IMG/VR virus record: IMGVR_UViG_3300027861_004723 | Direction: 5' to 3' (one strand) | Length of the DNA stretch: 46,900 bases | From: an uncultured virus (IMG/VR IMGVR_UViG_3300027861_004723) | Lineage: Duplodnaviria > Heunggongvirae > Uroviricota > Caudoviricetes | Shown here: positions 11,173-43,517 of the stretch, piece by piece | Layout of the letters: every line of letters starts with the position of its first letter | Numbering within the stretch: position 1 is the first letter of the stretch | Program-made: the position numbers and the translations under genes | Notes under the pieces: generated by a model | What the model was told of the DNA's origin: nothing | The model's database searches: none | What the model saw: the letters and a program-made list of their open reading frames with translations, nothing else

Positions 11173-11310
11173 GTTTCTGCCTGGGCGTTGTGCCCTAAAT
11201 AGAGGGATGACACTAACGGGTTGGGGACGTGGAGGAAAAGCGGGTGTCTGTAAAACAATACCGCTATAACAAAGCGTTGCAGGGGGCATCATACCCTGCC
11301 AGAAACACCA
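11173..11310 (+). ncRNA. Enlarged tRNA-Tyr-like RNA (138 nt) with expanded D domain
   Basis: Acceptor GTTTCTG/CAGAAAC + ACCA, loop CTGTAAA on an extended stem, T-like arm GCAGGG/CCCTGC. Confidence 0.6.
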
Positions 11311-11489
11311 TACAACTTGGGGGACTATGAGCAATCCTGATATGCAGCAAAAGCTACTGGCCGCGCAGGAGCTACTGCAAGACGATCTAATCACGTTTCT
11401 GGATGGGTTGCCTTCGGACACTGTTACTCACGCTTGTGGTCTAGTTATTGAGAGGTTTAAGCCTCTTTTTGACGAATCGAGCGGCATGA

Positions 11490-11831
11490 ATGAGTAATAG
11501 AGGCGCACCACGAATCTCAAAGCCAGCCAGGACCAAGAATACCTACTACGTCTTTCGTCGTAATGATGGTTATGTTTCTTCGACGTGTGGTAGTCCAGCT
11601 AAGGGCTGGACTGGTACTAATGGCAAAGTTACTACTTTTGAGCAGCTAGGCCAGTTTACCGACTGGGGAGACGCTTACGCGCTTATTGCTAAAGAGCGCA
11701 GGGATACACAGAGTTTGCGAGGCTTACTGCCTAAAGGTGCTTGGCAGGGCGAGGGGGAGCCCCCAGCCTCTTTCGTTCTAGGCTATTTTGGCTTACCTTA
11801 TCAGCCAGGAAAGCGCACACCTATTTCCTAA
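11490..11831 (+). CDS. Hypothetical protein
   Basis: ORF ending just before the promoter at 11843. Confidence 0.7.
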   Translation: MSNRGAPRISKPARTKNTYYVFRRNDGYVSSTCGSPAKGWTGTNGKVTTFEQLGQFTDWGDAYALIAKERRDTQSLRGLLPKGAWQGEGEPPASFVLGYFGLPYQPGKRTPIS

Positions 11832-12307
11832 TCGCCTATCTATTGACAGAAAAGTGGCAAAGAGCTAAGATCAAAGCTCGAAGCAGGGGCGGGCCTGACA
11901 GCCCATAAGGAGCTACCATGATCCAGCTAGCGTGTTTCCTCGACGGTGGGCTTTGTATCTACCTAGCAGCAATCAGTGTCCCGTCCCTGCTGGGGTGGTT
12001 GGGCTTTAGGCGCTTTTGCAAGAGCGGCGATTGCAGTAATCACGACCACTAATGAGGCGAACTGTTACCAATCTGCTAACACGTCTGGCTCCTATTGTTG
12101 CTAGTCGTAGTATCAAGCTAGAAGGCTTGGACGACGCGGAATTACGCTCGTTACTGCTAGCTCTACAGCATATTGAGCAACGTATTAGTCGTGCAGAGCG
12201 AAAAGCCAAACAGCCTCAAACCAGCAACCTTGGCGTAGGTAGCCGGTATCCCTTGACAGGAAAGTGTCTGAGGGCTAAGATCAAAGAACAACGCAGGGGG
12301 CGACAGA

Positions 12308-12793
12308 ATGTCAGCAAAGACTGAAATCCGGGGACCAGGGTTCAAGCTGTTCAATAACTTGAGCGGCACAACCCATATTGAAACCTCTGAGGAGGCGCAA
12401 CAGATTGGTAACCTCCTAAACCTGAAATCCTCACCAACAGCAACGCTTTTGTCGGTGACTTGGGAGCCCACGGTTTATCAGCCGGATAACGACGACGACC
12501 CTTTTAGGGATTTGACTGTCTCTGAGCGGGATCTGGTTGTTTTTGATAGCCCTGCTATCACTCTAGGCTGTAGCATCAGTGACTACTGCGGCGACGGTGA
12601 AACAACGGAGCATCAGGCCCCGAATGGTAAGAACTTTACCGTGCGCGATATGGTAAAGGCTGTTTGCGAAAACCAGCAGCAAACCCGTGGACAAACTGAT
12701 TGGTTCGGTGGAATTGATGTTCACCATATCTACTTTGAGGGCTTGAACCAGTCCGAGGGTAGCGATGTTTGGACTATCTCCTGGGGCTCCTAA
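12308..12793 (+). CDS. Hypothetical protein
   Basis: Promoter 12253-12281, G-rich SD. Confidence 0.8.
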   Translation: MSAKTEIRGPGFKLFNNLSGTTHIETSEEAQQIGNLLNLKSSPTATLLSVTWEPTVYQPDNDDDPFRDLTVSERDLVVFDSPAITLGCSISDYCGDGETTEHQAPNGKNFTVRDMVKAVCENQQQTRGQTDWFGGIDVHHIYFEGLNQSEGSDVWTISWGS

Positions 12794-12860
12794 GCCCTAA
12801 CTAGCCCTTCTCTTTACAGGGATCTCAGCCCGTGCTACCTTATGGGCAGTGGAGGAAAAC

Positions 12861-13139
12861 ATGGCGACCAAGCAAAAGAAGATCATCACCTGCCAGCAGC
12901 CCAGCGGTTGCGAGCGATCCCTGGGCGGCGGGTCCAGTAGGCTCGACACCGAGGAGCTTAACGCCCCAGCGCATTGTGTACTTTGTGGTACCGTCGTATG
13001 CGACGACTGTGTGGCGACCTTGGATAACATTCCGGTTAGTGAGTTTCCGAAGAAACGGCAGCCGGTTACCCGCGACCCCAGCACTACCCACGTTTTCGGA
13101 TGGGTGTGCAGCGATCATTTCAACGAGGACTGGGCCTAA
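12861..13139 (+). CDS. Zn-finger-like hypothetical protein
   Basis: Promoter 12813-12841, GGAGG SD, CxxC pairs. Confidence 0.75.
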   Translation: MATKQKKIITCQQPSGCERSLGGGSSRLDTEELNAPAHCVLCGTVVCDDCVATLDNIPVSEFPKKRQPVTRDPSTTHVFGWVCSDHFNEDWA

Positions 13140-13561
13140 TGCTTGAATTGCGTAATATCACTGATAGCACGCCTAAAAACGCTGCTAGTCTGGCGTGGGT
13201 TGACGTTACCTATGACGGGGCATCGGTTTTCGAGGTTGTCTACCAGAGTGACGCAATCTGGGAAGCTACTGCCGAGTTGGTAACAGAGGAAAATCAAGAG
13301 TGTTATCTCGGTTATATCACCGATCAGGACCGCTTTATTGTTGGTTTTGATACATGGGAAGCCGAGGACGATGGTTTCGGTTGGCGTGACCCCGATAAGG
13401 GCAACAAGGCTAGTGTGCTCTCTTTTGTCCTGCACCAAGGCAAGATCATTGACGTTCGGTCTGTTTCTGGCATGAACCCAATGTTCTATGGCACTGGTAA
13501 TAGCAACCTCAAGATGTTGCACGAGCGGTTCCCAACCTTGTTTGATATTCGGCTGGATTAA
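13139..13561 (+). CDS. Hypothetical protein
   Basis: TAATG coupling, GAGGA SD. Confidence 0.75.
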   Translation: MLELRNITDSTPKNAASLAWVDVTYDGASVFEVVYQSDAIWEATAELVTEENQECYLGYITDQDRFIVGFDTWEAEDDGFGWRDPDKGNKASVLSFVLHQGKIIDVRSVSGMNPMFYGTGNSNLKMLHERFPTLFDIRLD

Positions 13562-13910
13562 AGTGGCAAAGTCACAAACCAATCAGAGTAACAACGAATA
13601 CTGGTCGGCAGTAGACTCCGGTTATTGCTATTTGTGTTCGGCTCGTTTGCCGGATACCCCGAATGGCCCCTGCTACCAATGCCTAAAGAACGGCTAATAT
13701 GAAACTACACGTAAGTAACGTCTGGCTGATTGTGGATACATCAGCGGTTAATGACGCTGATCCTCAAACCGCACAGGAGCGAATCACTTTTGTGAAGGAT
13801 GCCATTAGCGAGGTTAATATGCGTCTGAACGCTAGAAACCTTGGTATTAGCATTGAGGGTTTTATTGAAGATGGGGATATTAGAGTCTCTTAGTAGAAAA
13901 CCGGATTACC

Positions 13911-14240
13911 ATGAATAAAAAGACCCTTGGCTTCCTTGTAGGAGCAATCTTCCTTCAGCTTCAGCTTCTATTTGTTTTTAGGGCTCTCCCTACAAAGGTA
14001 GAGCAAGAACAGCAACAGCAAATCCCTGGATTGCTCGCGGCTGGGCCGGAGATTGTGCCTTTGGCAGTCAAAACAGTATTGATTACTAACGGTGAAACCA
14101 CGATTCTGCTGGATCTTACTACAGGCAAGTGGCGTCATGCGAATTATCACAATGATAGTGGCGACATTTTTGTAGATGCAGGTTGGTCATACAACCCCAT
14201 TAAGATCAATGGAATCTCTGTAGATCCCGACGACGACTAA
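13911..14240 (+). CDS. Membrane-anchored or secreted hypothetical protein
   Basis: N-terminal KK plus hydrophobic stretch. Confidence 0.65.
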   Translation: MNKKTLGFLVGAIFLQLQLLFVFRALPTKVEQEQQQQIPGLLAAGPEIVPLAVKTVLITNGETTILLDLTTGKWRHANYHNDSGDIFVDAGWSYNPIKINGISVDPDDD

Positions 14241-14302
14241 ACATCTCTTGACAGGATCTACCTATCCGTGCAAGATACTGCTTGCAACGGCAAGGTAAAG
14301 AT

Positions 14303-15568
14303 ATGATGATTTTTGATGAGCTACAGGCACGGGGACTGATACACCAATTCACTCTCCCTAATCAGCTTAAAATGTGCGAGTTTCTAAGCACTACTCAATG
14401 TCTCTACGCCGGATTTGATCCGTCTGCCCCTAGCCTGCACGTCGGTAACCTGATTCCCCTATTGTGTCTAAAGCGTTTTCAATTAGCTGGACACCGTGTT
14501 ATTGCGCTTGTCGGAGGAGCAACAGGACAGATTGGTGACCCAAGTGGGCGATCCAGTGAGCGTAATTTATCCAGCTTGGACCTTGTTCAAGTTAATAAAA
14601 CAAAGATCATGGGGCAGCTTAGTAGCCTGCTGGGATCTGGAGAGTTAGTAGACAATCTCGACTGGCTAAAGGATATGTCTTTACTAGATTTCTTGCGTGA
14701 CATTGGTAAGCATTTTACCGTGAATACCATGCTTCGCAAAGATTCGGTAAAGAACCGTCTTGTGAGGGACGGAGACGGGCTCTCTTTTACAGAGTTTAGT
14801 TACAGCTTACTACAAGGGTTTGATTTCCTACACCTTTCTCGCACACGAGGAGTCAGCATACAACTTGGTGGTAGTGACCAATGGGGTAATATCACGGCTG
14901 GTACGGATCTTGTCCGTCGAGCGGATAACAAGACTGTACATGGTATTACTTTCCCGTTGCTCACTAACAGCGACGGTTCCAAGTTTGGTAAGAGCGCAGG
15001 AAATGCGATCTGGCTCGACCCAAAACTTACTAGCCCCTTTGATTTCAGACAGTTTTGGGTTAATACTGACGATGCTGATGTGATAGCAAGGCTTCGCCTG
15101 TTCACCTTTTTGTCTTTAGACGAAATCAATGAGTTTGTTGCTGGGCTAAAAACAAACCCAGGAGCAGCCCAACGAAAGTTGGCTAGAGAAATGACTGTGT
15201 TGGTTCACGGCACAGAAATTGCTGATAGTGTTGAACAAGCAGCGGATGCACTCTTTCGGAATGATCCTACATCAATCCCGGCAGCAGTCTTAGTAGACGC
15301 TCTAAAAGAAGCACCGAAAACTGTTATCAGCAGGGCTGCACTAGAGGCTGGGATTCCCCTTATTGATCTGATAGTTAAGACCGTTCATAAAGGCGCACAG
15401 GCTCGTGGTAAGGCCAGACGTGAGATTGAGGTAGACAAATGCATCTCCCTCAATGGTGTTCGACGGGTGAGCGGCCCAGCGCAAGTAGGCTTGGCGGATC
15501 TGTTGCATGATAGATTCTTAGTTATTAAGAAAGGTAAGCGTTCTTTCTTCTTGGTGGAGGTGTCTTGA
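14303..15568 (+). CDS. tyrS: Tyrosyl-tRNA synthetase (bacterial type)
   Basis: YAGFDPSAPSLHVGN (HIGH), GGATGQIGDPSG, QLGGSDQWGNI, KFGKS (KMSKS), C-terminal S4-like domain ending KKGKR. Confidence 0.97.
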   Translation: MMIFDELQARGLIHQFTLPNQLKMCEFLSTTQCLYAGFDPSAPSLHVGNLIPLLCLKRFQLAGHRVIALVGGATGQIGDPSGRSSERNLSSLDLVQVNKTKIMGQLSSLLGSGELVDNLDWLKDMSLLDFLRDIGKHFTVNTMLRKDSVKNRLVRDGDGLSFTEFSYSLLQGFDFLHLSRTRGVSIQLGGSDQWGNITAGTDLVRRADNKTVHGITFPLLTNSDGSKFGKSAGNAIWLDPKLTSPFDFRQFWVNTDDADVIARLRLFTFLSLDEINEFVAGLKTNPGAAQRKLAREMTVLVHGTEIADSVEQAADALFRNDPTSIPAAVLVDALKEAPKTVISRAALEAGIPLIDLIVKTVHKGAQARGKARREIEVDKCISLNGVRRVSGPAQVGLADLLHDRFLVIKKGKRSFFLVEVS

Positions 15569-15599
15569 CAGAAACTTGCTACCCGGTTAGGATGCTCGT

Positions 15600-15884
15600 A
15601 TGACATTGAAGAAGCAACGTATGCGCTTGGGGAAAACAATCCGCCAAGCTACAGGAATCCCTTTTAGGGAGGCTATCATTCTTGCAAAGATGGTAGTTGC
15701 TGGATGCACCCTGGAAAACTTGTATTCGGAGAGTATCCAGCTTGGCTCCTTTGAGTCTTTTGGCACTACCCAAGTCTCTGATACCAAGATAGATGCGTTG
15801 GGCCGGGTAGAGGTTGCTATTGGGCCTGACGGCTGTTTTTGGGACGGGCGGATTGTTGGTCCGCGAGGAGTTTACAATGGGTGA
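15600..15884 (+). CDS. Hypothetical protein (leaderless); resembles 24598..24831
   Basis: ATG 6 nt after the -10; LGKTIRQATGIP vs LAKTIRSETGVP, both ending in GPRG. Confidence 0.7.
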   Translation: MTLKKQRMRLGKTIRQATGIPFREAIILAKMVVAGCTLENLYSESIQLGSFESFGTTQVSDTKIDALGRVEVAIGPDGCFWDGRIVGPRGVYNG

Positions 15885-16591
15885 GCAAGGTATTACTACA
15901 GGGCTCGTGGGCGACGATGATCTTGAAGATAGCACAGCTTCAATCGAGATTTTGGCGCGTCTCGACCAACTGATTCAACTTTTTGGTGATACCAAGGGGT
16001 TGGAAGATAGCAGCTTTGACTGTTGTAACAATAGCGGCTCTCTAGTCTTCAAGTTTGGTGGTCGGCTTTGGGCTGTTAGCAGTCTCGACATTGCGCCGTG
16101 TGATTAGATGAACATAGCGGGTTTTACTGAGGGCGACAAAGTAGTTGTCTGCAAGCCAACACCGGGCGGGTGGAGCGACACTGATACCAAGGTTATTGAG
16201 TCGCTTCTAGGCAAAACTGGAGAGATTACAGAGTTTGCACAACTGCGCGTATACGTGGAGTTTGATCCTAGCGATTGGGGAGGGGGTAGGCATCAGGGCT
16301 TTGGAGAATGGCTCACTGTCTACGATATTCAAAAGGTTGATGGTTGATGCATGGAGAAACTACGCCGCATGGCGCTGGGACCGTTTCCTAAGACGGAAAC
16401 GCGGGGACCATCACGCCCGCAAAGATCGCTGCGCTTATGTGTTAGACGCTAGCATACCTCTAGTATGCCCGCGCACCCTAAAACGCGGAAACAAAGGCCC
16501 TTATTGTCCGAAACATCAACGTGTTTGGGACCGCGACATCTCTGGACAGTAACCGGCTACAATGCTACCTTATGGGCAGTGGAGGTAAAAG

Positions 16592-17576: not shown

Positions 17577-17648
17577 CAGCAATGCTATGCTGATCTGCAT
17601 ATCTTTACAGATCAGCAATGCTATGCTGATCTGCATATCTTTACAGAT
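17577..17648. repeat. Exact 36-bp tandem duplication
   Basis: CAGCAATGCTATGCTGATCTGCATATCTTTACAGAT x2, spanning a stop codon and a -35 box. Confidence 0.95.
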
Positions 17649-17682
17649 AGAGGATGTAAAGCTATACTGTTCTAACAAACGA

Positions 17683-17753
17683 CGCGCAGAAGTCTACGAG
17701 TACGACGCTGGCCTCATAAACCAGAGAATCGGGTGCGACTCCCGGCTGCGCTA
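17683..17753 (+). tRNA. tRNA-Met(CAT), divergent, initiator-like 1:72 mismatch
   Basis: Acceptor CGCGCAG/CTGCGCT, D GTC/GAC, loop CTCATAA, T arm TCGGG-TGCGACT-CCCGG; own promoter 17640-17668; no CCA. Confidence 0.7.
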
Positions 17754-23289: not shown

Positions 23290-24187
23290 TCCCTGATGAA
23301 CGTCACCGACTACACGCACAAGTTCGACTACATGGCTGGCGTAGTCGAGAGAACCCCGCTAGAGATGCTGCAATGTATTGCGGCTCGCGGGGAACCGGCT
23401 GCGCTGGAGTTGCTGCAAACCATCCCACATCACGCTGGGGAAATACGCGGTACCAAGATGGAAGTCGGTACAATGAACGCGCACATCACAGCCACCATTA
23501 CCCGCATCATGGTCGCGGAAGATATTGAAATAAGTTTCAGTCTTTAATAGCTATAGCCACCCCTTGACAGCAATCCTGAAAAGTTTAAGATACCTGCATG
23601 ACAATACGTTACCGGGCCGGTGGCGAACCCGTACGCCTGGCTCACCAAAAGTGGAAAAAAGAAGCGGCTGAATTGCGGCATCCTGTTGTTGCCTTTGTCG
23701 CTGGATGGAACGCTGCAATGGCTCAAGCAAAGGCATCATCATCGCAAGCAACTTGTCGCTGCGCTAACCGTAATTGCAGGGACGCGGTTTCTAGCCCTGG
23801 TCTTTGTGATGTCTGCCATCGTATTCAAGCTGAAACTGTAGCGAAGGCCCGCGATCAGCACGCAGTACGCTCCGCCCCTTGACAGGGAGACAACTTTCTA
23901 GTAAAATTAGGGTAGTCTCAAAGGAGGTCTGATGAATACTACAACCGTTTACGCACAAAACACAAACGGACGGTGGGAGCAAGCGAACCCCATTCACGAC
24001 TATAATGACAAGTCCATTGTTGTTATTGAGCGCCCAAACGGCGATAAGGTTTTTGATTTTGACGGTTGCAAGATGGCTACCACTGATGAATTGAGTGCCT
24101 TTTTCCGCCACCTTGGTATCCAGATTGGTCGCAAGCGCAGCAATCGTGTTTACCCGAGTATTCCAACACCAAAAAACTAATACAAAA

Positions 24188-24306
24188 AGAATGGTGAGGT
24201 AATTTAGCAACCCTACTGGCGATCTGCTCTGCAAAGTAGTGAACTGGTGAGTTTTGATGATTGCAGCATTATCAAACTGTTGCGGGTGCAAGTCCCGTCC
24301 ATTCTC
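24188..24306 (+). ncRNA. Enlarged tRNA-Cys-like RNA (119 nt), double-length anticodon arm and ~11-bp variable arm
   Basis: Acceptor AGAATGG/CCATTCT, D GGT/ACC, loop CTGCAA(A), T arm GCGGG-TGCAAGT-CCCGT. Confidence 0.7.
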
Positions 24307-24859
24307 ATACACTTACAGAAATTCAAACGATGAAGTTTTTCTTTAGCGCCCCGTGGTGGTACATTGTTTTTGCACCGCTCTTTTGGGCTGTATTTGCCCC
24401 ATTCTTGAGCCTTTGCATTGTGCTGTGGCCCAAGCTATCATTAAGCTGGGTCGAGCGTAAAGAGCTTGTTGCAACGCTCTGGTGGATTCCTACTATTGTG
24501 CTGCTGGCTACTAGGTAGCCGATTATCTGCCTCTAAGCTAGGGTATCTTGACAGCTATCCTGAGCCGTGTTACCTTATGGGCAGTGAAGGGAACGGCATG
24601 ACCGAGAAACGCACTGTCAGGAGGCTGGCAAAGACAATTCGCTCTGAGACGGGAGTGCCACTGGCCCATGCCAACATTATCGCCCGATTCGTCTGGGCGT
24701 GGGACTACTGGTCCTTAAAAGAGCATGATGTGGTCGGAAAACACTGCACAGTGTCCCGTAGCAGTTGTACTTGCTGCGGAATGACGGAGCTTACTGTTAG
24801 TGGCCCCAGAGGCACTTTCTATAAACCATAGAGGAAAACAGAAAAAATACAAAATACAC

Positions 24860-25001
24860 GATTGGATAGCTTAGTTGGCAGAGCGTCGAGACGTGCTCTA
24901 TCATGCGGAGAAAAGGTTGATGCGGCCACCACGCCATAGATACCAAATCTACAAAGATAGTAATAAATCTCGGAGGTAGGGTTCAAATCCCGTTCCAATC
25001 A
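24860..25001 (+). ncRNA. tRNA-scaffold RNA (142 nt), anticodon loop replaced by a ~77-nt domain
   Basis: Acceptor GATTGGA/TCCAATC, TAGCTTAGTTGGCAGAGC D arm, stem TCGAGA/TCTCGG, GGGTTCAAATCCC T arm. Confidence 0.75.
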
Positions 25002-25023
25002 CCTACACCTTGGAGTAATCTCG

Positions 25024-29344: not shown

Positions 29345-29397
29345 CCCTATATCTTGACAGATCCGAGGTAAAAGATATAATTCTGAAAACAAAACAT

Positions 29398-29436: not shown

Positions 29437-29625
29437 GGGAATCTAGCTCAAGAGAGAGGTACCATCTCAGCGGTAGACAAAACCCCTAAAGCTACGGGGC
29501 TAGTCGTGTAAAGGCCCTCGCAACCCTTCCCGGTACAAGGAAAATAGGTTGCGTATTAGCCAATACAGCCGAAGCAGAGCAACCGGGTAACCGGAAGGCT
29601 CCGGGTGCAAATCCTGGGGTTCCCT
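29437..29625 (+). ncRNA. tRNA-scaffold RNA (189 nt): ~125-nt domain in the D loop, GTAA tetraloop instead of an anticodon loop
   Basis: Acceptor GGGAATC/GGTTCCC, TA-GCTC...GAGC D stem, CCGG-GTAA-CCGG, T arm CCGGG-TGCAAAT-CCTGG. Confidence 0.8.
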
Positions 29626-30780: not shown

Positions 30781-31097
30781 ATCATGGTCGGTGAGTGAGC
30801 AATCTCTTTCTAGCTCTTGTGAGATACTATTCCGCAGTGGTATCAGTCACGAGAGGCGTAGGCTAAGATAGAAGCATGTGCTTCAGCGTTTTACCTACTT
30901 ATTCCTTCGTAAAATAGCAACAGCAGGATTACCTCCTTTCTTTGCTTGAACGTAGAATAGGGCTCACCAATAGAAGCAAGGGGCTTAGAGTTTAGAGCGG
31001 TTAATAGTTTTTACATTCCTGCCAATGGGCAGATTTGGAACAGGCTATAGCTAAAACAACTAAACTCAGCCCCAGGCTTCGCCTTTACATCGGTGGT
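30781..31097 (+). ncRNA. Candidate ~320-nt structured RNA containing a 16S-3'-end-like anti-SD tract
   Basis: No convincing ORF; stems TCTTGTGA/TCACGAGA, TTGCTT/AAGCAA, GGGGCT(TA)GAGTTTAG/CTAAACTCAGCCCC; GGATTACCTCCTTTCT at 30926-30941. Confidence 0.5.
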
Positions 31098-34190: not shown

Positions 34191-35345
34191 ATGCCCCTAA
34201 ATGTACAGAAGTATCTGCGTGATGGGGGCACCCTAGAGGGGCTTACTGAGGATCTTGGTATCCGCATCCATCATCATTCCGAGCTACCCCTTGTGGGATT
34301 TAGCTATAGCCAAATCGACAGCCCTAAGACGAACAACATCGTACGTGAGAGCCGGGGCCTTACTCTGGAAAAAGGCTCCTGGCGTATTGTCGCTAAGGCT
34401 TTCAACCGCTTCTTCCGTCTAGGAGAGTTTGCGGAGGAGTACGAAACTTTCAACTGGAGCGATTTTGATTGCTATACCAAGGCTGATGGTAGCCTAGTAT
34501 TGGTCTATAACTATCAGGGAAAGTGGTATGCCAAGACTCGTGGTAGTTTTGGAGGCGGCGAGGTTCCAAACAATCTGCCTGATTACTCCCCCAGTTTCAG
34601 TGAGTTGTTCTGGGACATCATGAAGGATAAGGGCATTGATCTTAGCAAGGTTTTGGATCCTGCTAACACCTATGTTTTCGAGATGTGCAGCAAGTTTAAC
34701 AAGGTTGTTCGGCTTTACGAAAAGCCTACTGCCTACCTACTTGCTGTTTTTAACAACGAGACTGCAAAGGAGCTTGCTCATGATTCCGTGGATACCCTTT
34801 CTGTGGAAGCTGGCCTGGATCGAGTGGAGCGATTCCACTTTACCTCTCTTGGGGAGGTCCAGGCTTATATGAAGCAGCAAGAGGATGCGGACCCCACTTA
34901 TGAGGGGGTTATCGTTTGCGACGACAAGCTGTTGCGCTTCAAGGTAAAGAGTATCACTTATGATGCCCTGCATCATATGTTTGATAACGGAAACATCTAT
35001 AACCCGAAGCGCCTTGTTCCTTGGGCTCTGAACCCTGATCCTAGCACTCTGCTAGAAACATACCCAGAGGTAAAGGAGCACCTTGATGCTGTTAAGGGCA
35101 AGGTAGACGAGTCTTACGACCAGCTACTAAAGGTCTGGAAAGAGCACCACAAGATTGAGGAGCAACGGACATTCGCCCAGGCTATTAAGGGCAAGACACC
35201 TTTCATGGGTCTACTGTTTGCCCTTCGTAAGAAGACTGGTATCCGAGGCCCTGGCGGGTTCGCCCCTGGCGAACAAACCGAGGAGCAGCTTTATACTCTT
35301 TGGCGTGATAGCGTGGACGGGATTGTTAAGGTTCTGTTCAAGTGA
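34191..35345 (+). CDS. T4 Rnl1-type RNA ligase
   Basis: RESRGL, FNRFF, motif I KADGS, FE, motif IV YEGVIV, motif V KVKSITY; AGGAGG SD. Confidence 0.9.
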   Translation: MPLNVQKYLRDGGTLEGLTEDLGIRIHHHSELPLVGFSYSQIDSPKTNNIVRESRGLTLEKGSWRIVAKAFNRFFRLGEFAEEYETFNWSDFDCYTKADGSLVLVYNYQGKWYAKTRGSFGGGEVPNNLPDYSPSFSELFWDIMKDKGIDLSKVLDPANTYVFEMCSKFNKVVRLYEKPTAYLLAVFNNETAKELAHDSVDTLSVEAGLDRVERFHFTSLGEVQAYMKQQEDADPTYEGVIVCDDKLLRFKVKSITYDALHHMFDNGNIYNPKRLVPWALNPDPSTLLETYPEVKEHLDAVKGKVDESYDQLLKVWKEHHKIEEQRTFAQAIKGKTPFMGLLFALRKKTGIRGPGGFAPGEQTEEQLYTLWRDSVDGIVKVLFK

Positions 35346-36063: not shown

Positions 36064-36933
36064 ATGAAATATACAACCGTAAGAGAGTCCCGACTCGACA
36101 CCACCAAAAAGTTCGTTTTTAGCGTTAAAAATCAAGAAGTTGAGTTTAGCTACATACATAAAAACGATGGTAAAGACATCATCGTTTGCCCTACGCAGAC
36201 ATCCTGCAAAATGGGATGCACCTTTTGCTTCCTAACAGGAATGGATCTTCCTGTAGTCAATCTAACCGCAGAGGATATTGCTACTGGAGTGCAGGCTGTT
36301 GTAGAGAAAGCTGGGTTGCCAGAATCACCGGAATTGCTACTATCCTTTATGGGTGCTGGCGAGCCCCTACTAAACTATAAGCACGTAATAAACGGCTGCA
36401 AAAAGGTGTGCCAGACAGCGCAATCGCACGTCGGATATAAGACTCTGCGTTTCGCTATAGCGACTATGATTCCAAGCTCTGCTTTAATGCGAGGGTTTAC
36501 GGAGGCATCTAAGCTGTTTAATTTTAAGGTCCACTTATCATTGCATAGCCCCTTTGACGACGTTCGCCGCAAGATGATGCCGCAGGCTGTGCTGGTAAAA
36601 GAGAGCCTAGAGCTTCTGCGTGAGCATAAGGCTTATACAGGCCATGATATAGAGATTCATTACACTTTGATTGATGGGTTTAATGATAGAGACGAAGACC
36701 TTGAGAAATTGTTAAAACTTCTTGACGCTGATACTCCCATTAAGTTTCTCGATTTTAAGGCCAAGCCCGGAACAACAATGCGTAAATCTAGTCGTGTAGA
36801 TGAGTTTAGAGATGCACTAGAGAACGCGGGAATCATAACAGAGTTTTACAATCCCCCTGGATCTGATATTGGCAGTAGTTGCGGACAGTTTGAAAGAAAA
36901 GTGATTCCGCTGGCAAAAACTGCTGTATCTTGA
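36064..36933 (+). CDS. RlmN/Cfr-family radical SAM RNA methyltransferase, N-terminally truncated
   Basis: CKMGCTFC, FMGAGEP, LSLH, C-terminal DIGSSCGQ. Confidence 0.88.
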   Translation: MKYTTVRESRLDTTKKFVFSVKNQEVEFSYIHKNDGKDIIVCPTQTSCKMGCTFCFLTGMDLPVVNLTAEDIATGVQAVVEKAGLPESPELLLSFMGAGEPLLNYKHVINGCKKVCQTAQSHVGYKTLRFAIATMIPSSALMRGFTEASKLFNFKVHLSLHSPFDDVRRKMMPQAVLVKESLELLREHKAYTGHDIEIHYTLIDGFNDRDEDLEKLLKLLDADTPIKFLDFKAKPGTTMRKSSRVDEFRDALENAGIITEFYNPPGSDIGSSCGQFERKVIPLAKTAVS

Positions 36934-38678: not shown

Positions 38679-39022
38679 AGGTAGTTACGAGCTTTGAACT
38701 TTGATCTTAGAGACAGGGATTAGTGCCCTGCGTGCTGATTATCCGAGGGTCGGATGGCAAGACGCCACTCTTAATAAGTGGTAACACTGGGTTCGATTCC
38801 CAGTCGGAACAAGTAATCAGTCCAGTGATTGAGAATATGTTATATTAAAGTTATTACTCAACACTGTTAGTTCTTGAAAGTATAAGATATTTACTACTAT
38901 GGACCTAGACTTGACCTAGACTTGCGGCCACCATGCCATTACGCCTAGCATAAAAGACTCCATAATAAATATAGAAATAAGAACTAAGCTCTAAGATCAA
39001 AGTTCAAGGCTCGAAACTACCT
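38679..39022 (+). ncRNA. ~345-nt multibranch RNA closed by a 34-bp inverted repeat, with an embedded tRNA-like (UAA) branch
   Basis: Arms 38679-38712 and 38989-39022 (32/34 Watson-Crick + one G-U); promoter 38628-38656; internal helices tile the interval. Confidence 0.75.
38740..38811 (+). tRNA. Degenerate tRNA-like domain, anticodon TAA, short variable loop
   Basis: D GTC/GAC, CCACT-CTTAATA-AGTGG, CTGGG-TTCGATT-CCCAG; acceptor only 5 bp (TCCGA/TCGGA). Confidence 0.55.
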
Positions 39023-39068
39023 ACCACACAAACCTGTTACGAAATCCAAAAGAGAAACTGAGAACATC

Positions 39069-40148
39069 ATGCCTGGTATCCTGATTGACTGGAAGCCCAC
39101 CAAGCCGCTTTCCGAGTATTCGGATGTCGAGCTTCGCCAGACTCCCCCTTACAAGCAGATTACTGCTTACGCGCAAATCGATGACCACTATGGTCTGCGG
39201 CTGACGCGAGACTGTATCACACAGTTGGAGCAGGCTCTTGCCGAGGAAGCTAGGATTGAGGATAACTTGAAGGCCGAGCCTGATATTAGTCTTTTTCCGT
39301 ATGAGAACGCTAGTCGCCGCACTAAGCAGCGGTGGAGCGCCCATATCACTGGACGTTGCAACCTTACCTGCCGTTTCTGTCGGCGTGAAGATTCACAGTT
39401 CCATCAGTGGGGGGATACGGGAGATGTCTCTCTGGAGACGGGAGATGTCTCTCTTGCAGGAGCATGTTTGCTTTGCGGGGATCAGAACGCCGCGTTCTGC
39501 GGTGACCATATCACTGGTGTTACTACTACCCAAGCGGCTACTGCCGAGATTGTTGAGGCCGAGGTGGACGAGGTGATGACTGCTGACGAGGTTCTTACCG
39601 AGGTTGTTGCTGACGAACTTTGGGATGCTGCACAGCTTGTTGCTGCTACCAAGGCTAAGGTCGAGATCAATCAGGAGGCTCTGATTCAGGGCATGTTGGT
39701 CTGGCACCGTTTCGGCCACTACCCTTGTATCTTGCTTGAGGATATGAGCAATGGATTCTGGATGATCCAGACTAAGGATGGGGATATTGAGCGCCAGGTG
39801 CGCGGTGCTATCCTGACTCCTGTTAAGCCGAACATCTTCAAGCGGGTTTGGGCTAGCCTCAAGCATCGCAAAGAGGAGAAGCAGGAGCAAGCTGCGGAAG
39901 CGGCTTTCCAGACTGCTAGGTTGCCACGCTCTGCTCATGGTGGTGGTAGTATTGTCCTCCAAGGCGGTTATGGTGGCACCACCGGAAACAGTGGGCCTGT
40001 AACTGTCAAGGGTGGTAACAACACCGAAGCCAAGCCGAAGCCAAGCCGGAAGATGCGTTATGCACTTTTGGCGGTCACTGCAACGGCTTTGACTGCGGTT
40101 GCTGTGCAACCCGAGCTTCTCGCCACCCTTACCAGTCTTATCTGGTAA
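39069..40148 (+). CDS. Multi-domain hypothetical protein: Zn-finger-like region, acidic linker, C-terminal membrane anchor
   Basis: 359-aa ORF; CxxC motifs; internal GDVSL repeat; hydrophobic C-terminus. Confidence 0.8.
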   Translation: MPGILIDWKPTKPLSEYSDVELRQTPPYKQITAYAQIDDHYGLRLTRDCITQLEQALAEEARIEDNLKAEPDISLFPYENASRRTKQRWSAHITGRCNLTCRFCRREDSQFHQWGDTGDVSLETGDVSLAGACLLCGDQNAAFCGDHITGVTTTQAATAEIVEAEVDEVMTADEVLTEVVADELWDAAQLVAATKAKVEINQEALIQGMLVWHRFGHYPCILLEDMSNGFWMIQTKDGDIERQVRGAILTPVKPNIFKRVWASLKHRKEEKQEQAAEAAFQTARLPRSAHGGGSIVLQGGYGGTTGNSGPVTVKGGNNTEAKPKPSRKMRYALLAVTATALTAVAVQPELLATLTSLIW

Positions 40149-40168
40149 GGTAGACAACTTTTCTTTCT

Positions 40169-40198
40169 GATACTCCCTGGATTAGTCCAGGGAGTATC
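40169..40198. other. Perfect 13-bp hairpin
   Basis: GATACTCCCTGGA-TTAG-TCCAGGGAGTATC; no downstream U tract on either strand. Confidence 0.7.
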
Positions 40199-41209
40199 GC
40201 TCATCACCTAAGAAACGCAGGGCAGTGATGCTTGATACTCTCAAAGAGATTGCTATTGCCTTTGGTGGTGCTGTCGTTGGGCTAGTCTGTTGTTCTATTG
40301 GTGCTATCCTTTTCGCTATTCCCTGCGCTGCTATTCTCTTGGGCCTGGTTTGGGCTTTGATGGAAATCACTGGCTTGGGACAAAACGCTGCTACAATTTG
40401 GGTGTCTGGTATAGGGGGTTTGGTTTGTATGACTATTGCTGTCTATCAACAAAACCAAGTTCATAAACGATGGATGGCCGGGATTATGGCAGAGGTAGAT
40501 CGCAAGATTGCTGCTGAGAACACGGAAGGGTAGAGAGATGTCTGACCAAGATGAAAACAGGATTTCTCTAGACGAGCTTTGGGTAATAGCTGATTATGGC
40601 TATCATGGAGATCCGGGGTGTAATGGTTACGCCTACTCCTCAAAAGAGGAAGCCCAAGCTATTGTTGATAAAACCAAAAAGAATTATCCTAAGCTACACT
40701 ACAAAGTAATGAGTGTGCAAGACTATATCTGGCAGAACAAGCGTTACCAAGACCATAACTGTGGTATTTGTTAGTGGTCTATTGCGATTACAGAAACCCA
40801 CCTTGCAATAACGAAGCTGAAAAGTTGGGGCTTGGCTGGTATGAAATTTCATTCGCAGGAATGAAACCCAAGTATTTCTGCTGTAAGGCTCATGCTATTT
40901 ATGCTATCTCCGATCCGGTCAAACATTGTGAGCTAGATGACCTTGAAGACCTAAAAGACAAAGACGGCAATGACATTAGAGGCTGAAGATGAAAGTAAAA
41001 GAAACTGTACTCTCTGGCGGTCGGACCAAGACCGACATCACTATTGACATTCTCAATAGCTGCGATATGCCCCAGACCATCTCTGCGGTAACCGTCAACC
41101 CAGACAAGAGCATTAGCTGGTCCATCTTTGGGCAGCGCAGCCCTGCTGTAGCCAGGGAAATGGCACAGGCTCTTATCAAAGCCGCTGAAATCGCAGAACG
41201 CAGCATCCA

Positions 41210-41767
41210 ATGAAACTTACCTGTCAGATGATCCTGCCGGGAGGCATAGCCGGAATAGCCTGCGGCAAGCCAGTAGGCGATGCCTTCTGTCCCGAGCATC
41301 TTGAGCTATTTATGAACCAAGATCAAATTACTGATTTCCTCAACAAAGCACTTGATAAGGGTTTTGACGTTCACGCCATCCTTAATCGAGTAACAACCAT
41401 TCGTTGTGGGCTTGCGGATACTACGGCTCGAAACCGCGAGTGGGGAACTAATAGCAAATACATCTTTGGTGTTAAAACCAAGGATGAGTGCTTTGACGAC
41501 CTGTGGGGTGGATTCTGTATCGGAATCGTTAAAAAGGATTTCTGGGAAAACGAGCGGCGATGTCTTGAAGATCGCCATATTAGTGGAGAAATCTATCTTC
41601 CGGATGACGGCCTGGGATTTAGCGAGGAGATGGAGAGCACCTTTGGTTGCGTCAGTAATACTGCAATGGGCGTGGTTACTCGTGAGATGGTGATTAGGTC
41701 ACTAACCCAAGCCGGATTTATACATTCAACTGATTTACAGGATTGGATATTGGACCACGACCCATGA
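41210..41767 (+). CDS. Hypothetical protein
   Basis: Coupled ORF (ATGA overlaps). Confidence 0.7.
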   Translation: MKLTCQMILPGGIAGIACGKPVGDAFCPEHLELFMNQDQITDFLNKALDKGFDVHAILNRVTTIRCGLADTTARNREWGTNSKYIFGVKTKDECFDDLWGGFCIGIVKKDFWENERRCLEDRHISGEIYLPDDGLGFSEEMESTFGCVSNTAMGVVTREMVIRSLTQAGFIHSTDLQDWILDHDP

Positions 41768-42760
41768 GCAAACCTAAGAAAACAAAACGCAAGAAACCGC
41801 AAGCTGTCTACGTCCTAAACACTTTTACCAGCGGAGGATCAGCCGTTCCTCATATCGGTAGCAAAGGCTGGTTGTGTTCTGATAAAGACCACAATCACTT
41901 TGCAGGACAAGTTGGTAGGGTCTGTGTAGTGTTTCGTGCTTGCTTTGATCCGTCAACCGGCGAACCTAGAGTCCCTAAAGGCTATATGCCTGTTCACTTG
42001 TATTTCCCTCTTGATCATCTGAGCAAGCGCAAGATTGGTATCAAGCGAACGGCTTTGCTGCGTGGGCAGTTTAAGATGGCGCTGGAGGAGAAGCGGGCGA
42101 AGCTGGCAAAGGAAAGCGCACAAGCTAGTAAGGATCTAAAGAAGGTTTTTGAGAGATTGGACAAATTGCTACCCGAGACTAAAAATGTGGTAAGGGATCT
42201 TTGGGATAAAGCAGGCCGAAAAAGCTGATATGGTTTGGATAAAACTTCTTAAAGCCCAGGAAACTACCCCTAAACCTAAAGAGCGTTGGTATATACATTG
42301 TAGGATTGGTAGACAATACTTTATCGTTTCTAGGTTTGGTATTAGGTGGATTAGGTGATTAAAAACGCAGAATGGTCTTGCGAATGGTGTGGAGATACAA
42401 AACCACTTTCCTGGCTTGAGTCTTTGTTCAGTTGGCTACAGCCGCGCTATTGTGCAGTATACGGGGAGGCGGCTGGTTGGCCCAGCCCCTCTTGTCGCCT
42501 ATCTGCTAGGCTAGCCGAACGAATCGCTGCTAGAACGGCTGCAACGGCTAAGAAAAAAACCCTTAAAGAGCTTCGTGGGCTGACGCTAGGTCGATTGCGC
42601 GGTAATGATCTTGCTGCGCCTTCAAACACTGCTGCTGGAATAATGAATAAGGGCTTTGATGGTGTTGGACCGTGGAGACTTGATGATGCGTCTCTTGACA
42701 GGAAAACCACGAAAGACTAAAATTGCGGCATAACGCAACCGAGCCAGAGAGCAAAACACA

Positions 42761-43108
42761 ATGGGCATGGGCAGTATGATTACTACTGACGAGCGCAAGG
42801 CAGAGGTCCGCAAGACCATCGCTGACGCGGGGCTGGATTGGTTTCGCTGTGAGCCGGGATTTCGGTTTCTCGATGCAGATGGTGACGAGTGTATTGTCAT
42901 CGGATGGGGTGGTTGGCGCGAGCCGGATCTTCTAGGAGCCCTAGACCTTTGCCCCGATGAGCATCATGGACATAGGCGCAATCATTCTCTCTTTACACTG
43001 CAATTCAAGCCTGCTACCCTGGTGGGCGCTTATTCTTACAAGGGGGAGCAATGCTTGATGAGCATCCCAGATATGGAGTTTCTATCGTGCTGTAAACCCG
43101 CTTCCTAA
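42761..43108 (+). CDS. Hypothetical protein
   Basis: Promoter 42695-42723. Confidence 0.7.
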   Translation: MGMGSMITTDERKAEVRKTIADAGLDWFRCEPGFRFLDADGDECIVIGWGGWREPDLLGALDLCPDEHHGHRRNHSLFTLQFKPATLVGAYSYKGEQCLMSIPDMEFLSCCKPAS

Positions 43109-43115
43109 CACCAAT

Positions 43116-43188
43116 GGAGGCGTAGCTCAGATGGTAGAGCAGCAGGCTTTTAACCTGCGGGTCCAGGGTTCGATCCCCTGCGCCTTCA
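43116..43188 (+). tRNA. tRNA-Lys(TTT)
   Basis: Canonical cloverleaf: GGAGGCG/CGCCTTC, GCAGG-CTTTTAA-CCTGC, CAGGG-TTCGATC-CCCTG. Confidence 0.93.
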
Positions 43189-43195
43189 TCAACAT

Positions 43196-43312
43196 GGCAT
43201 GTTAGCATAATAGTATGCGTCTTTGCTAGTGATACCGCCAATAAGAAGCGGGCAAGGAATTTTTATCACGTTTTGAGCAAAGAAGATGTAGGTGCGAGCC
43301 CTACACTTGCCT
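43196..43312 (+). ncRNA. tRNA-scaffold RNA (117 nt) with an extended, anticodon-less arm
   Basis: Acceptor GGCATGT/ACTTGCC, D GCAT/ATGC, TCTTTGCT/AGCAAAGA + GTGATA/TATCAC, T arm GTAGG-TGCGAGC-CCTAC. Confidence 0.75.
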
Positions 43313-43374
43313 TACCTAGAAAATCTCGCTAGTGATTGACAGGAAAACCCCTGCGGGCTATGATGCTATCACAA

Positions 43375-43517
43375 CCCGCACAGGAGACAGGCGTCTCACT
43401 TTTTCAATCGTGCAAGTATTACGCTGATCGGACGCGATAATCCTTCGGTTAGGATTTGAAAACAGCACAGTATTTGTAGGGAAAGACGTAAGCCAGGTTC
43501 GAGTCCTGGGTGCGGGG
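43375..43517 (+). ncRNA. tRNA-scaffold RNA (143 nt): acceptor + T arm, novel D hairpin and branched long arm
   Basis: CCCGCAC/GTGCGGG, CCAGG-TTCGAGT-CCTGG, GAGAC/GTCTC, TGCAAGTATT/AGTATTTGTA, AATCCT/AGGATT; own promoter 43336-43364. Confidence 0.7.

What the first reader, a model, noticed from the sequence alone, without database searches (positions are those of the whole stretch)
11173..43517. A family of phage 'tRNA-scaffold' RNAs: tRNA ends and T arm kept, decoding arm swapped for cargo domains
Seen: six elements (11173-11310, 24188-24306, 24860-25001, 29437-29625, 43196-43312, 43375-43517) each have a 7-bp acceptor stem (one mismatch at 43196) abutting a T arm, and most have a D stem. They are 117-189 nt long because unrelated, internally base-paired domains occupy the D loop or anticodon arm. 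Four have no anticodon loop at all. They sit in promoter-driven non-coding gaps, two directly after true tRNAs, behind A/C-rich spacers. Known: RNase P, RNase Z and CCA-adding enzyme mainly read the acceptor/T-arm elbow. Inference: the phage may use the tRNA chassis to excise and stabilise a panel of small RNAs (decoys for anticodon nucleases or RNA-sensing defences, ribosome or synthetase ligands), alongside TyrRS, Rnl1 and RlmN in the same region. I do not recognise this as a described system.
Basis: partly seen in the sequence, partly recalled or inferred. Interest (0 to 1): 0.92.

Follow-up and report, generated by a model that had tools for sequence, protein, structure and literature searches.

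The report
Non-decoding tRNA-shaped RNA genes in phage
An uncultured marine phage carries about six genes for RNAs that keep the outer frame of a tRNA but cannot read codons, the same puzzling kind of RNA long known, with no known function, from phages T4 and T5.

Summary
The observation largely holds. Four elements (24188, 29437, 43196, 43375) have a canonical T arm directly followed by a 7-bp acceptor stem. Such T arms occur 8 times on the + strand, 0 on the - strand, and 0.69 times in shuffles. Element 24860 passes Rfam's tRNA cut-off (34.5 bits) with 78 nt in place of the anticodon loop. Element 11173 is looser: it has a terminal 7-bp stem, an encoded ACCA end and a CUGUAAA loop, but an odd T hairpin and a competing fold.

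None of the other five matches any Rfam family. No single deletion turns any element into one defined ordinary tRNA.

The kind is not undescribed. T4 rnaC and T5 RNA1 and RNA2, annotated as tRNA-like stable RNAs of unknown function, show the same design in the same gene context. This scan has also noted similar tRNA-shaped phage RNAs on other DNA.

I found no relatives of these six elements, no strain variants and no RNA data. Conservation, covariation and expression are therefore untested.

Most likely they are tRNA-derived stable RNAs, excised by host tRNA-processing enzymes. Their function is unknown. I rate them a new member of a known, unexplained kind.

The parts
11173..11310 (+). Element e1 (138 nt). 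Acceptor 11173-11179 / 11300-11306 (7 Watson-Crick pairs), long hairpin 11180-11220, arm 11226-11278 with loop CUGUAAA at 11248-11254, odd T-like hairpin 11279-11299 (6 bp, 9-nt loop), A73 at 11307, encoded CCA at 11308-11310.
   Evidence: Acceptor pairing probability 0.98 in isolation. No Rfam match. Weakest of the six as a tRNA shape.
24188..24306 (+). Element e2 (119 nt). Acceptor 24188-24194 / 24299-24305 (perfect), arm 24214-24249, 11-bp hairpin 24250-24278, T arm 24282-24298 (loop UGCAAGU), discriminator C at 24306. No anticodon loop.
   Evidence: (no Rfam match).
24860..25001 (+). Element e3 (142 nt), a tRNA gene with 78 nt (24891-24968) in place of the anticodon loop. Acceptor 24860-24866 / 24994-25000, D arm 24869-24884, anticodon stem 24886-24890 / 24969-24973, T loop 24982-24988. 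The insert carries the hairpin motif at 24921-24935.
   Evidence: Rfam tRNA 34.5 bits, E 2.4e-5. ARAGORN -i calls a 69-nt intron and a non-canonical loop UAAUAAA. Motif.
29437..29625 (+). Element e4 (189 nt). Acceptor 29437-29443 / 29618-29624 (one G-U), D stem GCUC 29446-29449 / GAGC 29577-29580 enclosing a 127-nt insert (29450-29576) that still contains AGCGGUAGA, a 4-bp hairpin with GUAA loop at 29583-29594 in place of the anticodon arm, T arm 29601-29617 (loop UGCAAAU).
   Evidence: 12-nt 83% complementarity, 29525-29536 with 29587-29598; no credible Rfam match.
29354..29381 (+). Promoter-like site TTGACA-16-TATAAT (12/12), about 55 nt upstream of e4.
43115..43190 (+). True tRNA-Lys(UUU), directly upstream of e5.
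   Evidence: 69 bits.
43196..43312 (+). Element e5 (117 nt). Acceptor 43196-43202 / 43305-43311 (one U-U mismatch), D hairpin 43205-43218, long arm 43220-43283 (8 + 6 + 4 bp) in place of the anticodon arm, T arm 43288-43304 (loop UGCGAGC).
   Evidence: (no Rfam match). Competing 5' partner at 43250-43256.
43336..43364 (+). Promoter-like site TTGACA-17-TATGAT (11/12), ending about 10 nt before e6.
43375..43517 (+). Element e6 (143 nt). Acceptor 43375-43381 / 43510-43516 (perfect), D-like hairpin 43384-43397, 91-nt branched arm 43398-43488, T arm 43493-43509 (loop UUCGAGU), discriminator G at 43517. The ATG of a 63-aa Cys-rich ORF starts at 43520.
   Evidence: z -4.63, 0 of 200 shuffles. Arm z -3.04..
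11091..11164 (+). True tRNA-Asn(GUU) with T loop UGCAAAU, directly upstream of e1.
14282..15568 (+). Tyrosyl-tRNA synthetase gene.
   Evidence: Pfam tRNA-synt_1b 3.2e-79.
34191..35345 (+). T4 Rnl1-type RNA ligase gene.
   Evidence: Pfam RNA_lig_T4_1 7.2e-19. PHROG 562 1.9e-42.
36064..36933 (+). RlmN/Cfr-like radical SAM gene (below the curated cut-offs).
   Evidence: TIGR00048 3.3e-34, 118 bits against a cut-off of 290.

Best explanation
These are genes for non-decoding, tRNA-shaped small RNAs. Five are solid (24188, 24860, 29437, 43196, 43375) and one is looser (11173). They are the same kind of thing as the tRNA-like stable RNAs of phage T4 (rnaC) and T5 (RNA1, RNA2).

Origin: they derive from the phage's own tRNA genes.

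What they kept: the parts that tRNA-maturation enzymes read, namely a 7-bp acceptor stem stacked on a 5-bp T arm with a T loop, and usually a D stem. The D loop or anticodon arm has been expanded into 60-130-nt arms that cannot present an anticodon.

Inferred life cycle:
1. They are transcribed rightward with true tRNAs and small early ORFs from sigma-70-type promoters.
2. Host RNase P cuts at +1.
3. An RNase Z-type cut follows the discriminator. Five of the six, like the window's true tRNAs, lack an encoded CCA.
4. CCA is added, and the RNAs persist as stable species.

The same cuts would also split the polycistronic transcripts; e6 ends 2 nt before an ATG.

What the arms do is not shown. My best guess is that they offer RNA modules on a tRNA look-alike to a protein partner, for example as a decoy for a tRNA-directed host factor.
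For: Shown:
- Canonical T arm plus acceptor geometry far above chance and strand-specific: 8 T arms on +, 0 on -, 0.69 expected.
- e3 passes Rfam's tRNA cut-off with a 78-nt anticodon-loop replacement.
- e2, e4 and e5 share the unusual T loop U-G-C-R-A with this phage's true tRNA-Asn and tRNA(CAU), which argues for descent from the phage's own tRNAs.
- e4 keeps AGCGGUAGA inside a GCUC/GAGC D stem.
- All six lie in gaps between + strand ORFs, co-oriented with 4 true tRNAs, and two abut true tRNAs.
- Strong promoter-like sites lie just upstream of e4 and e6.
- None of the - strand ORFs that overlap them has a Pfam family.
- e6 is far more stable than its shuffles (z -4.63).

Precedent:
- T4 rnaC has a CCGGGUUCGAAUCCCGG T arm, z -4.57.
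- T5 RNA1 and RNA2 have acceptor, D and T arms around enlarged middles, among tRNAs, small ORFs, promoters and HNH genes.
- The T4 tRNA-cluster transcript is the precursor of 8 tRNAs plus the species I and II RNAs (PMC2330249, passages).
- A 15-nt hairpin motif in e3's insert recurs exactly in two other non-coding places: 3 found, 0.11 expected.
Against: - I found no homolog of any of the six, so there is no conservation or covariation.
- There are no expression or end data.
- Fold stability is unremarkable for five of the six whole elements (z -1.07 to -1.78), and for every insert piece tested outside e6 (z -0.69 to -1.86).
- e3's T stem has only 3 good pairs.
- e1's T hairpin is non-canonical and has a competing fold.
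- e5 has a competing 5' partner.
- Processing by RNase P and RNase Z, stability and any partner are inferred, not shown.
- The function of the T4 and T5 precedents is itself unknown (PMC9697503, passages).
Confidence: 0.55

Rival explanations
1. The elements are intron-bearing tRNA genes. The inserts are removed by an unknown endonuclease, the halves are sealed by the phage Rnl1-type ligase, and ordinary decoding tRNAs result.
For: - e3 is a tRNA by Rfam, and its insert sits exactly in the anticodon loop.
- ARAGORN -i calls e3 an intron-bearing tRNA.
- A distant relative, L001 17962-18077, has the same design (Rfam tRNA 41.6 bits, 36 nt in the loop).
- Lak megaphages are reported to have tRNAs with 'enigmatic introns' (10.1101/356790, passages).
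- An Rnl1-type ligase is encoded nearby.
Against: - The e3 loop left after the called intron is UAAUAAA, without U33.
- No single-segment deletion gives one defined tRNA. ARAGORN called 0 of 1545 variants for e1, 2 of 1545 for e4, and 63-154 of 1545 for the others, with many different anticodons. Shuffled-interior controls gave 0-419 calls.
- e4's anticodon arm is a closed 4-bp GUAA hairpin, and its insert is in the D loop.
- No group I intron or other Rfam match.
- No splicing endonuclease domain among the 112 window ORFs scanned.
- Inserts of 78-127 nt are shorter than group I introns (from general knowledge).
Confidence: 0.12
2. The elements are dead or dying tRNA genes, disrupted by insertions or small mobile elements and kept only by chance. 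Any processing is incidental.
For: - Relatives by Rnl1 (L001, L002) carry many ordinary tRNAs (13 and 5 ARAGORN calls) where this phage has few.
- Insert stability is mostly unremarkable.
- e3's insert carries a motif that also lies in two other gaps, one of them bracketed by a 34-nt inverted repeat. That could mark a small mobile element.
Against: - Acceptor stems are intact: 7 of 7 pairs in five elements and 6 of 7 in e5. T arms are intact in four elements despite the large inserts.
- Two elements have their own strong promoter-like sites.
- The inserts are unique, not repeated elements.
- e6 is strongly structured.
- The genome is otherwise tightly packed.
- The same design is kept as stable RNAs in T4 and T5.
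Confidence: 0.15
3. The point is the cut, not the RNA. The tRNA shapes would be processing signals, like plant-mitochondrial t-elements or mascRNA, that let RNase P and RNase Z split early polycistronic transcripts and set mRNA ends.
For: - e2 and e3 sit between ORFs without a promoter of their own.
- e6's discriminator (43517) lies 2 nt before the ATG of a plausible 63-aa Cys-rich ORF with no room for a ribosome-binding site.
Against: - A minimal acceptor plus T-arm shape would be enough for cutting. The 60-130-nt arms, the strongly structured e6 arm and the shared hairpin module in e3 are not explained.
- e1, e4 and e5 are not followed closely by a start codon.
- This reading does not exclude the best explanation.
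Confidence: 0.13
4. For e1 only: it is an oversized tyrosine-accepting RNA that partners with the phage TyrRS, either as a decoding tRNA-Tyr or as a nuclease-resistant stand-in.
For: - e1 has G1-C72, A73, the only encoded CCA among the ten tRNA-type genes of the window, and a hairpin loop CUGUAAA (anticodon GUA).
- A TyrRS gene lies 3 kb downstream.
- No ordinary tRNA-Tyr was found in the window.
Against: - The loop sits on a 5 + 3-bp arm with an internal loop, and the minimum-energy fold closes it to a triloop.
- The T hairpin is non-canonical, U8 is absent, and the D region is a 17-bp rod.
- ARAGORN called 0 of 1545 deletion variants.
- The TyrRS identity rules I used are recalled, not tested here.
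Confidence: 0.1

Closest known systems
Phage T4 stable RNAs rnaC (species 1, 139 nt) and rnaD (species 2, 119 nt), AF158101 70908-71171
   Same: - They lie at the end of the tRNA gene cluster, co-oriented with it and next to a tRNA.
- rnaC has a canonical T arm followed by an imperfect acceptor stem, long structured arms in the middle, and z -4.57, like e6.
- They are made from the same precursor transcript as the tRNAs (PMC2330249, passages).
- Their function is still unknown (PMC9697503, passages).
   Different: - No sequence similarity: blastn of the elements against 50,697 phage records gave no match.
- By my reading of the sequence, the rnaC acceptor has two U-U mismatches.
- rnaD shows no T arm in its fold.
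- T4 has two such RNAs; this 32-kb region has six.
Phage T5 RNA1 (144 nt), RNA2 (125 nt) and RNA3 (73 nt), annotated 'tRNA-like stable RNA with unknown functions' (AY543070)
   Same: - The genomic setting is the same: tRNA genes interleaved with small ORFs, promoters, HNH endonuclease genes and stable RNAs.
- RNA1 and RNA2 fold with a 6-8-bp terminal stem, a D arm, canonical T arms (GAAGGUUCAACUCCUUC, CAGGUUCGAAUCCUG) and enlarged middles.
   Different: No sequence similarity. The T5 RNAs were seen as RNA species; these six are predictions only.
tRNAs with 'enigmatic introns' of Lak megaphages (Devoto et al., bioRxiv 10.1101/356790)
   Same: They are oversized phage tRNA genes that bacterial tRNA finders fail on. 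The inserts are conserved, no splicing mechanism is known, and a T4-type RNA ligase is encoded in the same genomes (passages). e3 and L001 17962-18077 are of this type.
   Different: The Lak cases were assigned anticodons by a eukaryote-mode tRNA finder. Here only e3 can be read that way, and its remaining loop is non-canonical. Their Table S6, which holds the intron sequences, is a bioRxiv supplement that I could not open, so I made no direct comparison.
Engineered 'tRNA scaffold' for recombinant RNA expression (Ponchon and Dardel; method recalled, with a related paper, PMC3753655, seen only as a search listing)
   Same: In both, the anticodon arm is replaced by a cargo RNA, while the acceptor and T arm give processing and stability.
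   Different: It is a laboratory design, not a natural system. Whether these phage RNAs work this way is not shown.
tmRNA
   Same: It has a tRNA-like acceptor and T arm with a large domain in place of the anticodon arm. A distant relative of this phage (L002 10996-11308) encodes one.
   Different: ARAGORN finds no tmRNA in the window. None of the six has a G3-U70 pair (read from the sequence), and I identified no tag reading frame.

Membership tests
tRNA (Rfam RF00005) | Score at or above the gathering cut-off of 29 bits | tested here: inconclusive
   Met by e3 only: 34.5 bits when 24180-25010 was searched alone. It was missed in the whole-window scans. Not met by e1, e2, e4, e5 or e6, even at E up to 10 with lax filters.
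tRNA (Rfam RF00005) | A 7-nt anticodon loop with U33 on a 5-bp stem | tested here: not met
   - e2, e5 and e6 have long arms there.
- e4 has a 4-bp GUAA hairpin.
- e3 has 78 nt there, and the leftover loop is UAAUAAA.
- e1 has a CUGUAAA loop, but on an irregular arm.
Phage tRNA-like stable RNAs (T4 rnaC type, T5 RNA1/RNA2 type): an architectural class, not a homology family | Lies among phage tRNA genes, on the same strand | tested here: met
   All six are on the + strand with the 4 true tRNAs. Two abut tRNA-Asn and tRNA-Lys.
Phage tRNA-like stable RNAs (T4 rnaC type, T5 RNA1/RNA2 type) | Terminal acceptor-like stem abutting a T arm, with an enlarged non-decoding middle, about 100-190 nt | tested here: met
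   for e2, e4, e5 and e6; for e3. e1 meets it only loosely. T4 and T5 were folded for comparison.
Phage tRNA-like stable RNAs (T4 rnaC type, T5 RNA1/RNA2 type) | Accumulates as a discrete stable RNA in infected cells | not testable with these tools
   No RNA run was available for this DNA. Contigs of DNA runs cannot show RNA ends.
Phage tRNA-like stable RNAs (T4 rnaC type, T5 RNA1/RNA2 type) | Sequence homology to T4 or T5 members | tested here: not met
   blastn (word size 11) of the elements against 50,697 phage records, which include T4 and T5, gave no match.
tmRNA | ARAGORN or Rfam tmRNA call, G3-U70 pair, tag reading frame | tested here: not met
   No tmRNA call in the window. None of the six acceptor stems has G3-U70 (read).
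Group I intron in a tRNA gene | Match to the group I intron model; intron of about 200 nt or more inside the anticodon loop | tested here: not met
   No Rfam intron match at any threshold. Inserts are 78-127 nt. The size rule is from general knowledge.
Bacterial Y RNA-like RNAs (YrlA) with Ro protein | Rfam YrlA match; RNA ends in a Ro-binding stem at the anticodon side; Ro/TROVE gene nearby | tested here: not met
   No Rfam match. Here the ends are in the acceptor stem. No TROVE domain among the 112 window ORFs scanned. The YrlA topology is recalled.

The most novel reading that the evidence does not exclude
Large phages use the tRNA frame as a natural expression scaffold. Host tRNA enzymes cut out and stabilise a panel of exchangeable RNA modules, such as the GCGGC-CACCAY-GCCRU hairpin in e3 and the branched arm of e6. 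These modules would bind or mislead host factors, for example tRNA-directed defence enzymes. That would make the 50-year-old T4 and T5 'stable RNAs' the first seen members of a widespread RNA-based counter-defence or host-takeover toolkit.
Probability: 0.2. Interest if true: 0.8.

Novelty: new member of a known kind. Interest (0 to 1): 0.5.

Why it matters
Phage tRNA-like stable RNAs have had no known function since they were found in T4 and T5. This window adds a dense set: six in 32 kb, each with a different insert, next to TyrRS, Rnl1 and RlmN-like genes. Two have their own strong promoters, and one insert shares a hairpin module with two other non-coding transcripts.

Together with the similar cases this scan has noted on other DNA, this suggests a common design in large phages that is still uncatalogued in Rfam. 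If the arms prove functional, the design would be a natural counterpart of the engineered tRNA scaffold and a new class of phage regulatory or anti-defence RNA.

On its own, this window cannot show function. Nothing here is conserved or expressed as far as the available data can tell.

Tried and rejected
1. **Relatives for covariation.**
   - Rnl1 found only L001 (42% identity), L002/L006 (38%), L005 (53%), L007 (32%) and the window's own contig (L003, L004).
   - tblastn of 110 window ORFs against L001, L002, L005, L007, L008 and L009 hit nothing but Rnl1.
   - blastn of the six elements against the same loci gave only 2 chance-level hits.
   - TyrRS, the 359-aa ORF and the RlmN-like ORF found no relative in viral contigs.
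   - The Rnl1 profile found none in genome contigs.
   - 3'-half patterns of e6 and e4 gave 0 hits in viral contigs. A full-frame e6 pattern gave 0 in genome contigs.
   - There is no match in the phages collection.
2. **The e3 hairpin motif in viral contigs.** It gave 27 hits, about my own rough chance estimate. All 27 lie in open frames of 132 aa or more, and none is related to the window. I rejected them as chance.
3. **Sequencing runs.** No RNA holder was listed. Laying contigs of 4 DNA runs gave only fragments identical to the window. The one variant listed (43146 G>A, inside tRNA-Lys) came with loose ends typical of other organisms' tRNA genes. There was therefore no strain variation to test pairing.
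4. **Splicing test.** See: no defined product.
5. **Thermodynamic pairing probabilities with 40-nt flanks**. These were as poor for the true tRNAs as for the elements, so they were not informative.
6. **Relaxed scan with any T-loop sequence**. It was no better than shuffles, so I did not use it to call further members.
7. **Whole genome.** None is held for this window, and L003, L005 and L007 could not be extended.
8. **Literature.** Four searches found no paper that assigns a function to such phage RNAs.

Full report
**What the window is.** All credible genes run on the + strand. Most are short ORFs without any family: 20 and 92 ORFs were scanned, and few had hits. The recognisable genes are these:
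- a tyrosyl-tRNA synthetase (14282-15568)
- a T4 Rnl1-type RNA ligase (34191-35345)
- an RlmN/Cfr-like radical SAM protein (36064-36933; 118 bits, below the curated cut-off of 290)
- a small ligase-like protein (4450-5097)
- an HNH endonuclease (44462-45151)

The DNA is identical to part of a 66.9-kb marine metagenome contig (L003). It has no nucleotide match among 50,697 phage records. Its Rnl1 is at best 37% identical to that of any phage record. Two distant Rnl1 relatives in IMG/VR are estimated 22% and 7% complete at 42 and 14 kb, so this lineage is probably of the 200-kb class.

**True tRNAs.** ARAGORN finds tRNA-Asn (11091-11164), tRNA-Leu(UAA) (38739-38812) and tRNA-Lys (43115-43190), and no tmRNA. 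Rfam adds a CAU tRNA at 17683-17753. Neither tool calls any of the six flagged elements in whole-window scans.

- Such T arms occur 8 times on the + strand and never on the - strand. The mean in 100 shuffles was 0.69 (largest 3).
- The eight are the four true tRNAs plus 24188, 29437, 43196 and 43375.
- Acceptor stems are perfect in 24188 and 43375. 29437 has one G-U and 43196 has one U-U mismatch.
- T arm plus acceptor hits were 10 observed against a mean of 0.17 in shuffles.

Element 24860 was missed because its T stem has only three G-C pairs. When 24180-25010 is searched alone, Rfam's tRNA model scores it 34.5 bits (cut-off 29, E 2.4e-5), with 78 nt where the 7-nt anticodon loop should be.

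Element 11173 is the weak one. Its terminal 7-bp stem is perfect and it ends in an encoded ACCA. But the 'T arm' is a 6-bp stem with a 9-nt loop, and that region can pair instead with 11173-11195 (23 nt, 74% complementary). Geometry of that loose kind is common by chance: 49 and 37 hits on the two strands against about 27 in shuffles.

**Anatomy** (read).
- e2: acceptor, a weak D region, an 11-bp arm with an internal loop, an 11-bp hairpin and a T arm.
- e3: a textbook acceptor, D arm, 5-bp anticodon stem, variable loop and T loop. The 78-nt insert begins with a 7 x 8-nt internal loop and a 5-bp helix (CUAUC/GAUAG).
- e4: the D stem GCUC/GAGC encloses 127 nt that still contain the D-loop-like AGCGGUAGA. 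The anticodon arm is a closed 4-bp hairpin with a GUAA loop. A 12-nt stretch of the insert is 83% complementary to that hairpin and the variable region.
- e5: a D hairpin, then an 8 + 6 + 4-bp arm where the anticodon arm should be.
- e6: a 5-bp D-like hairpin, then a 91-nt branched arm.
- e1: two long arms, one of which ends in CUGUAAA.

e2, e4 and e5 share the unusual T loop U-G-C-R-A with this phage's own tRNA-Asn and tRNA(CAU). This points to descent from the phage's own tRNA genes.

**Stability.** Only e6 is clearly more stable than its shuffles: z -4.63 with 0 of 200 shuffles as stable, and z -3.04 for the arm alone. The others range from -1.07 to -1.78 as whole elements, and from -0.69 to -1.86 for the insert pieces.

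**Setting.**
- e1 follows tRNA-Asn after 9 nt, and e5 follows tRNA-Lys after 5 nt.
- e4 and e6 each have a near-consensus promoter-like site just upstream (12/12 and 11/12).
- e2 and e3 sit between ORFs without one.
- Five of the six, like the four true tRNAs, lack an encoded CCA.
- e6's discriminator (43517) lies 2 nt before the ATG of a plausible 63-aa Cys-rich ORF.
- The - strand ORFs that overlap the elements have no family.

**Are they split tRNAs?**
- ARAGORN in intron mode calls only e3. It gives a 69-nt intron and a leftover loop UAAUAAA that lacks U33.
- I deleted every single segment that would leave 67-96 nt (1545 variants per element) and ran ARAGORN. It called 0 variants for e1, 2 for e4 and 63-154 for the others. 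The calls were spread over many anticodons, and shuffled-interior controls gave 0-419 calls. No defined spliced tRNA emerges.
- No group I intron or ribozyme model matches.
- No splicing endonuclease domain was seen.

**A module shared by e3.** The 15-mer TGCGGCCACCAYGCC in e3's insert (24921) recurs exactly at 8759 and 38923, both non-coding. That is 3 matches against 0.11 expected, and 0 of 100 shuffles reached 3. The flanks differ but each extends the hairpin GCGGC-CACCAY-GCCRU. This is the only hint I found that an insert carries a reused functional piece. It could equally mark a small mobile element. The motif is not enriched in IMG/VR: 27 hits, all inside long open frames.

**Comparison with what is known.**
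- The T4 record annotates rnaC (139 nt) and rnaD (119 nt) as small stable RNAs next to tRNA-Arg.
- rnaC folds with the T arm CCGGGUUCGAAUCCCGG, an imperfect terminal stem and long arms, z -4.57.
- The T5 record annotates RNA1, RNA2 and RNA3 as tRNA-like stable RNAs of unknown function, among tRNAs, small ORFs, promoters and HNH genes.
- T5 RNA1 and RNA2 fold with acceptor, D and T arms around enlarged middles.
- The T4 cluster transcript is the common precursor of the tRNAs and the species I and II RNAs (PMC2330249, passages).
- The function of RNAC and RNAD was still unknown in 2022 (PMC9697503, passages).
- Lak megaphage tRNAs with conserved 'enigmatic introns' are reported (10.1101/356790, passages). 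e3 and L001 17962-18077 (Rfam tRNA 41.6 bits with 36 nt in the loop) are of that type.
- Earlier notes of this scan describe comparable tRNA-shaped RNAs in other phage genomes, with the same closest-known RNAs. I used these as leads and checked the T4, T5 and Lak points myself.

**What could not be done.** No relative of any of the six elements was found by any route. The public DNA runs hold only identical fragments. No RNA run was available. Conservation, covariation, transcript ends and function therefore remain open.

**Verdict.** The structural observation is real for five elements and plausible for the sixth. The elements are best read as new, sequence-unrelated members of the known but unexplained class of phage tRNA-like stable RNAs. 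Excision by host tRNA-processing enzymes is inferred. The decoy or scaffold idea is possible but has no direct support here.

Noticed in passing
window 8759-8773, 24921-24935, 38923-38937 (+): The exact 15-mer TGCGGCCACCAYGCC occurs three times in non-coding DNA (0.11 expected). It forms the hairpin GCGGC-CACCAY-GCCRU with different closing helices. One copy lies inside e3's insert.
   Followed up: partly
window 38679-38712 and 38989-39022: A 34-nt inverted repeat (94% complementary) brackets 276 nt that hold the tRNA-Leu(UAA)-like gene and one copy of the hairpin motif. This 'tRNA-Leu' has no long variable arm and only 5 good acceptor pairs. A further 6-bp helix (UGAUUA/UAAUCA) extends the stem.
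   Followed up: partly
window 17577-17648: A perfect 36-nt x 2 tandem repeat, each unit holding the hairpin GATCTG...CAGATC, lies just upstream of the CAU tRNA (17683-17753).
   Followed up: no
window 1533-1642, 8468-8577, 30800-30909: These non-coding gaps hold strongly structured stretches (z -5.6, -6.6 and -5.4). The values are rough: 25 shuffles, and the best of several sliding windows. The one at 8468 follows a TTGACA-17-TACAAT site that I read by eye. They may be further small RNAs.
   Followed up: no
window 7820, 8664, 8781 (+): GCTTAGGGYGATG occurs three times exactly. Two of the copies directly follow hairpins in the 8463-8863 gap.
   Followed up: no
window 43517-43711: e6 ends 2 nt before the ATG of a 63-aa ORF with CxxCC and CP motifs and no room for a ribosome-binding site. 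A cut at the tRNA-like 3' end would leave a nearly leaderless mRNA.
   Followed up: partly
L002 10996-11308; L001 16998-17082 and 17962-18077: Distant Rnl1 relatives carry a tmRNA (tag VPNVQVAAL) and a 115-nt tRNA with 36 nt in the anticodon loop. They also carry tRNAs with an alternative T loop, AGCRUWA, some of which ARAGORN misses (for example a Tyr-GUA gene at L001 16998-17082).
   Followed up: partly
window 11092-11162, 17683-17752, 24188, 29437, 43196: T loops with G instead of the near-universal U at the second loop position (UGCRANY) occur in two true tRNAs and three tRNA-shaped elements of this phage.
   Followed up: no
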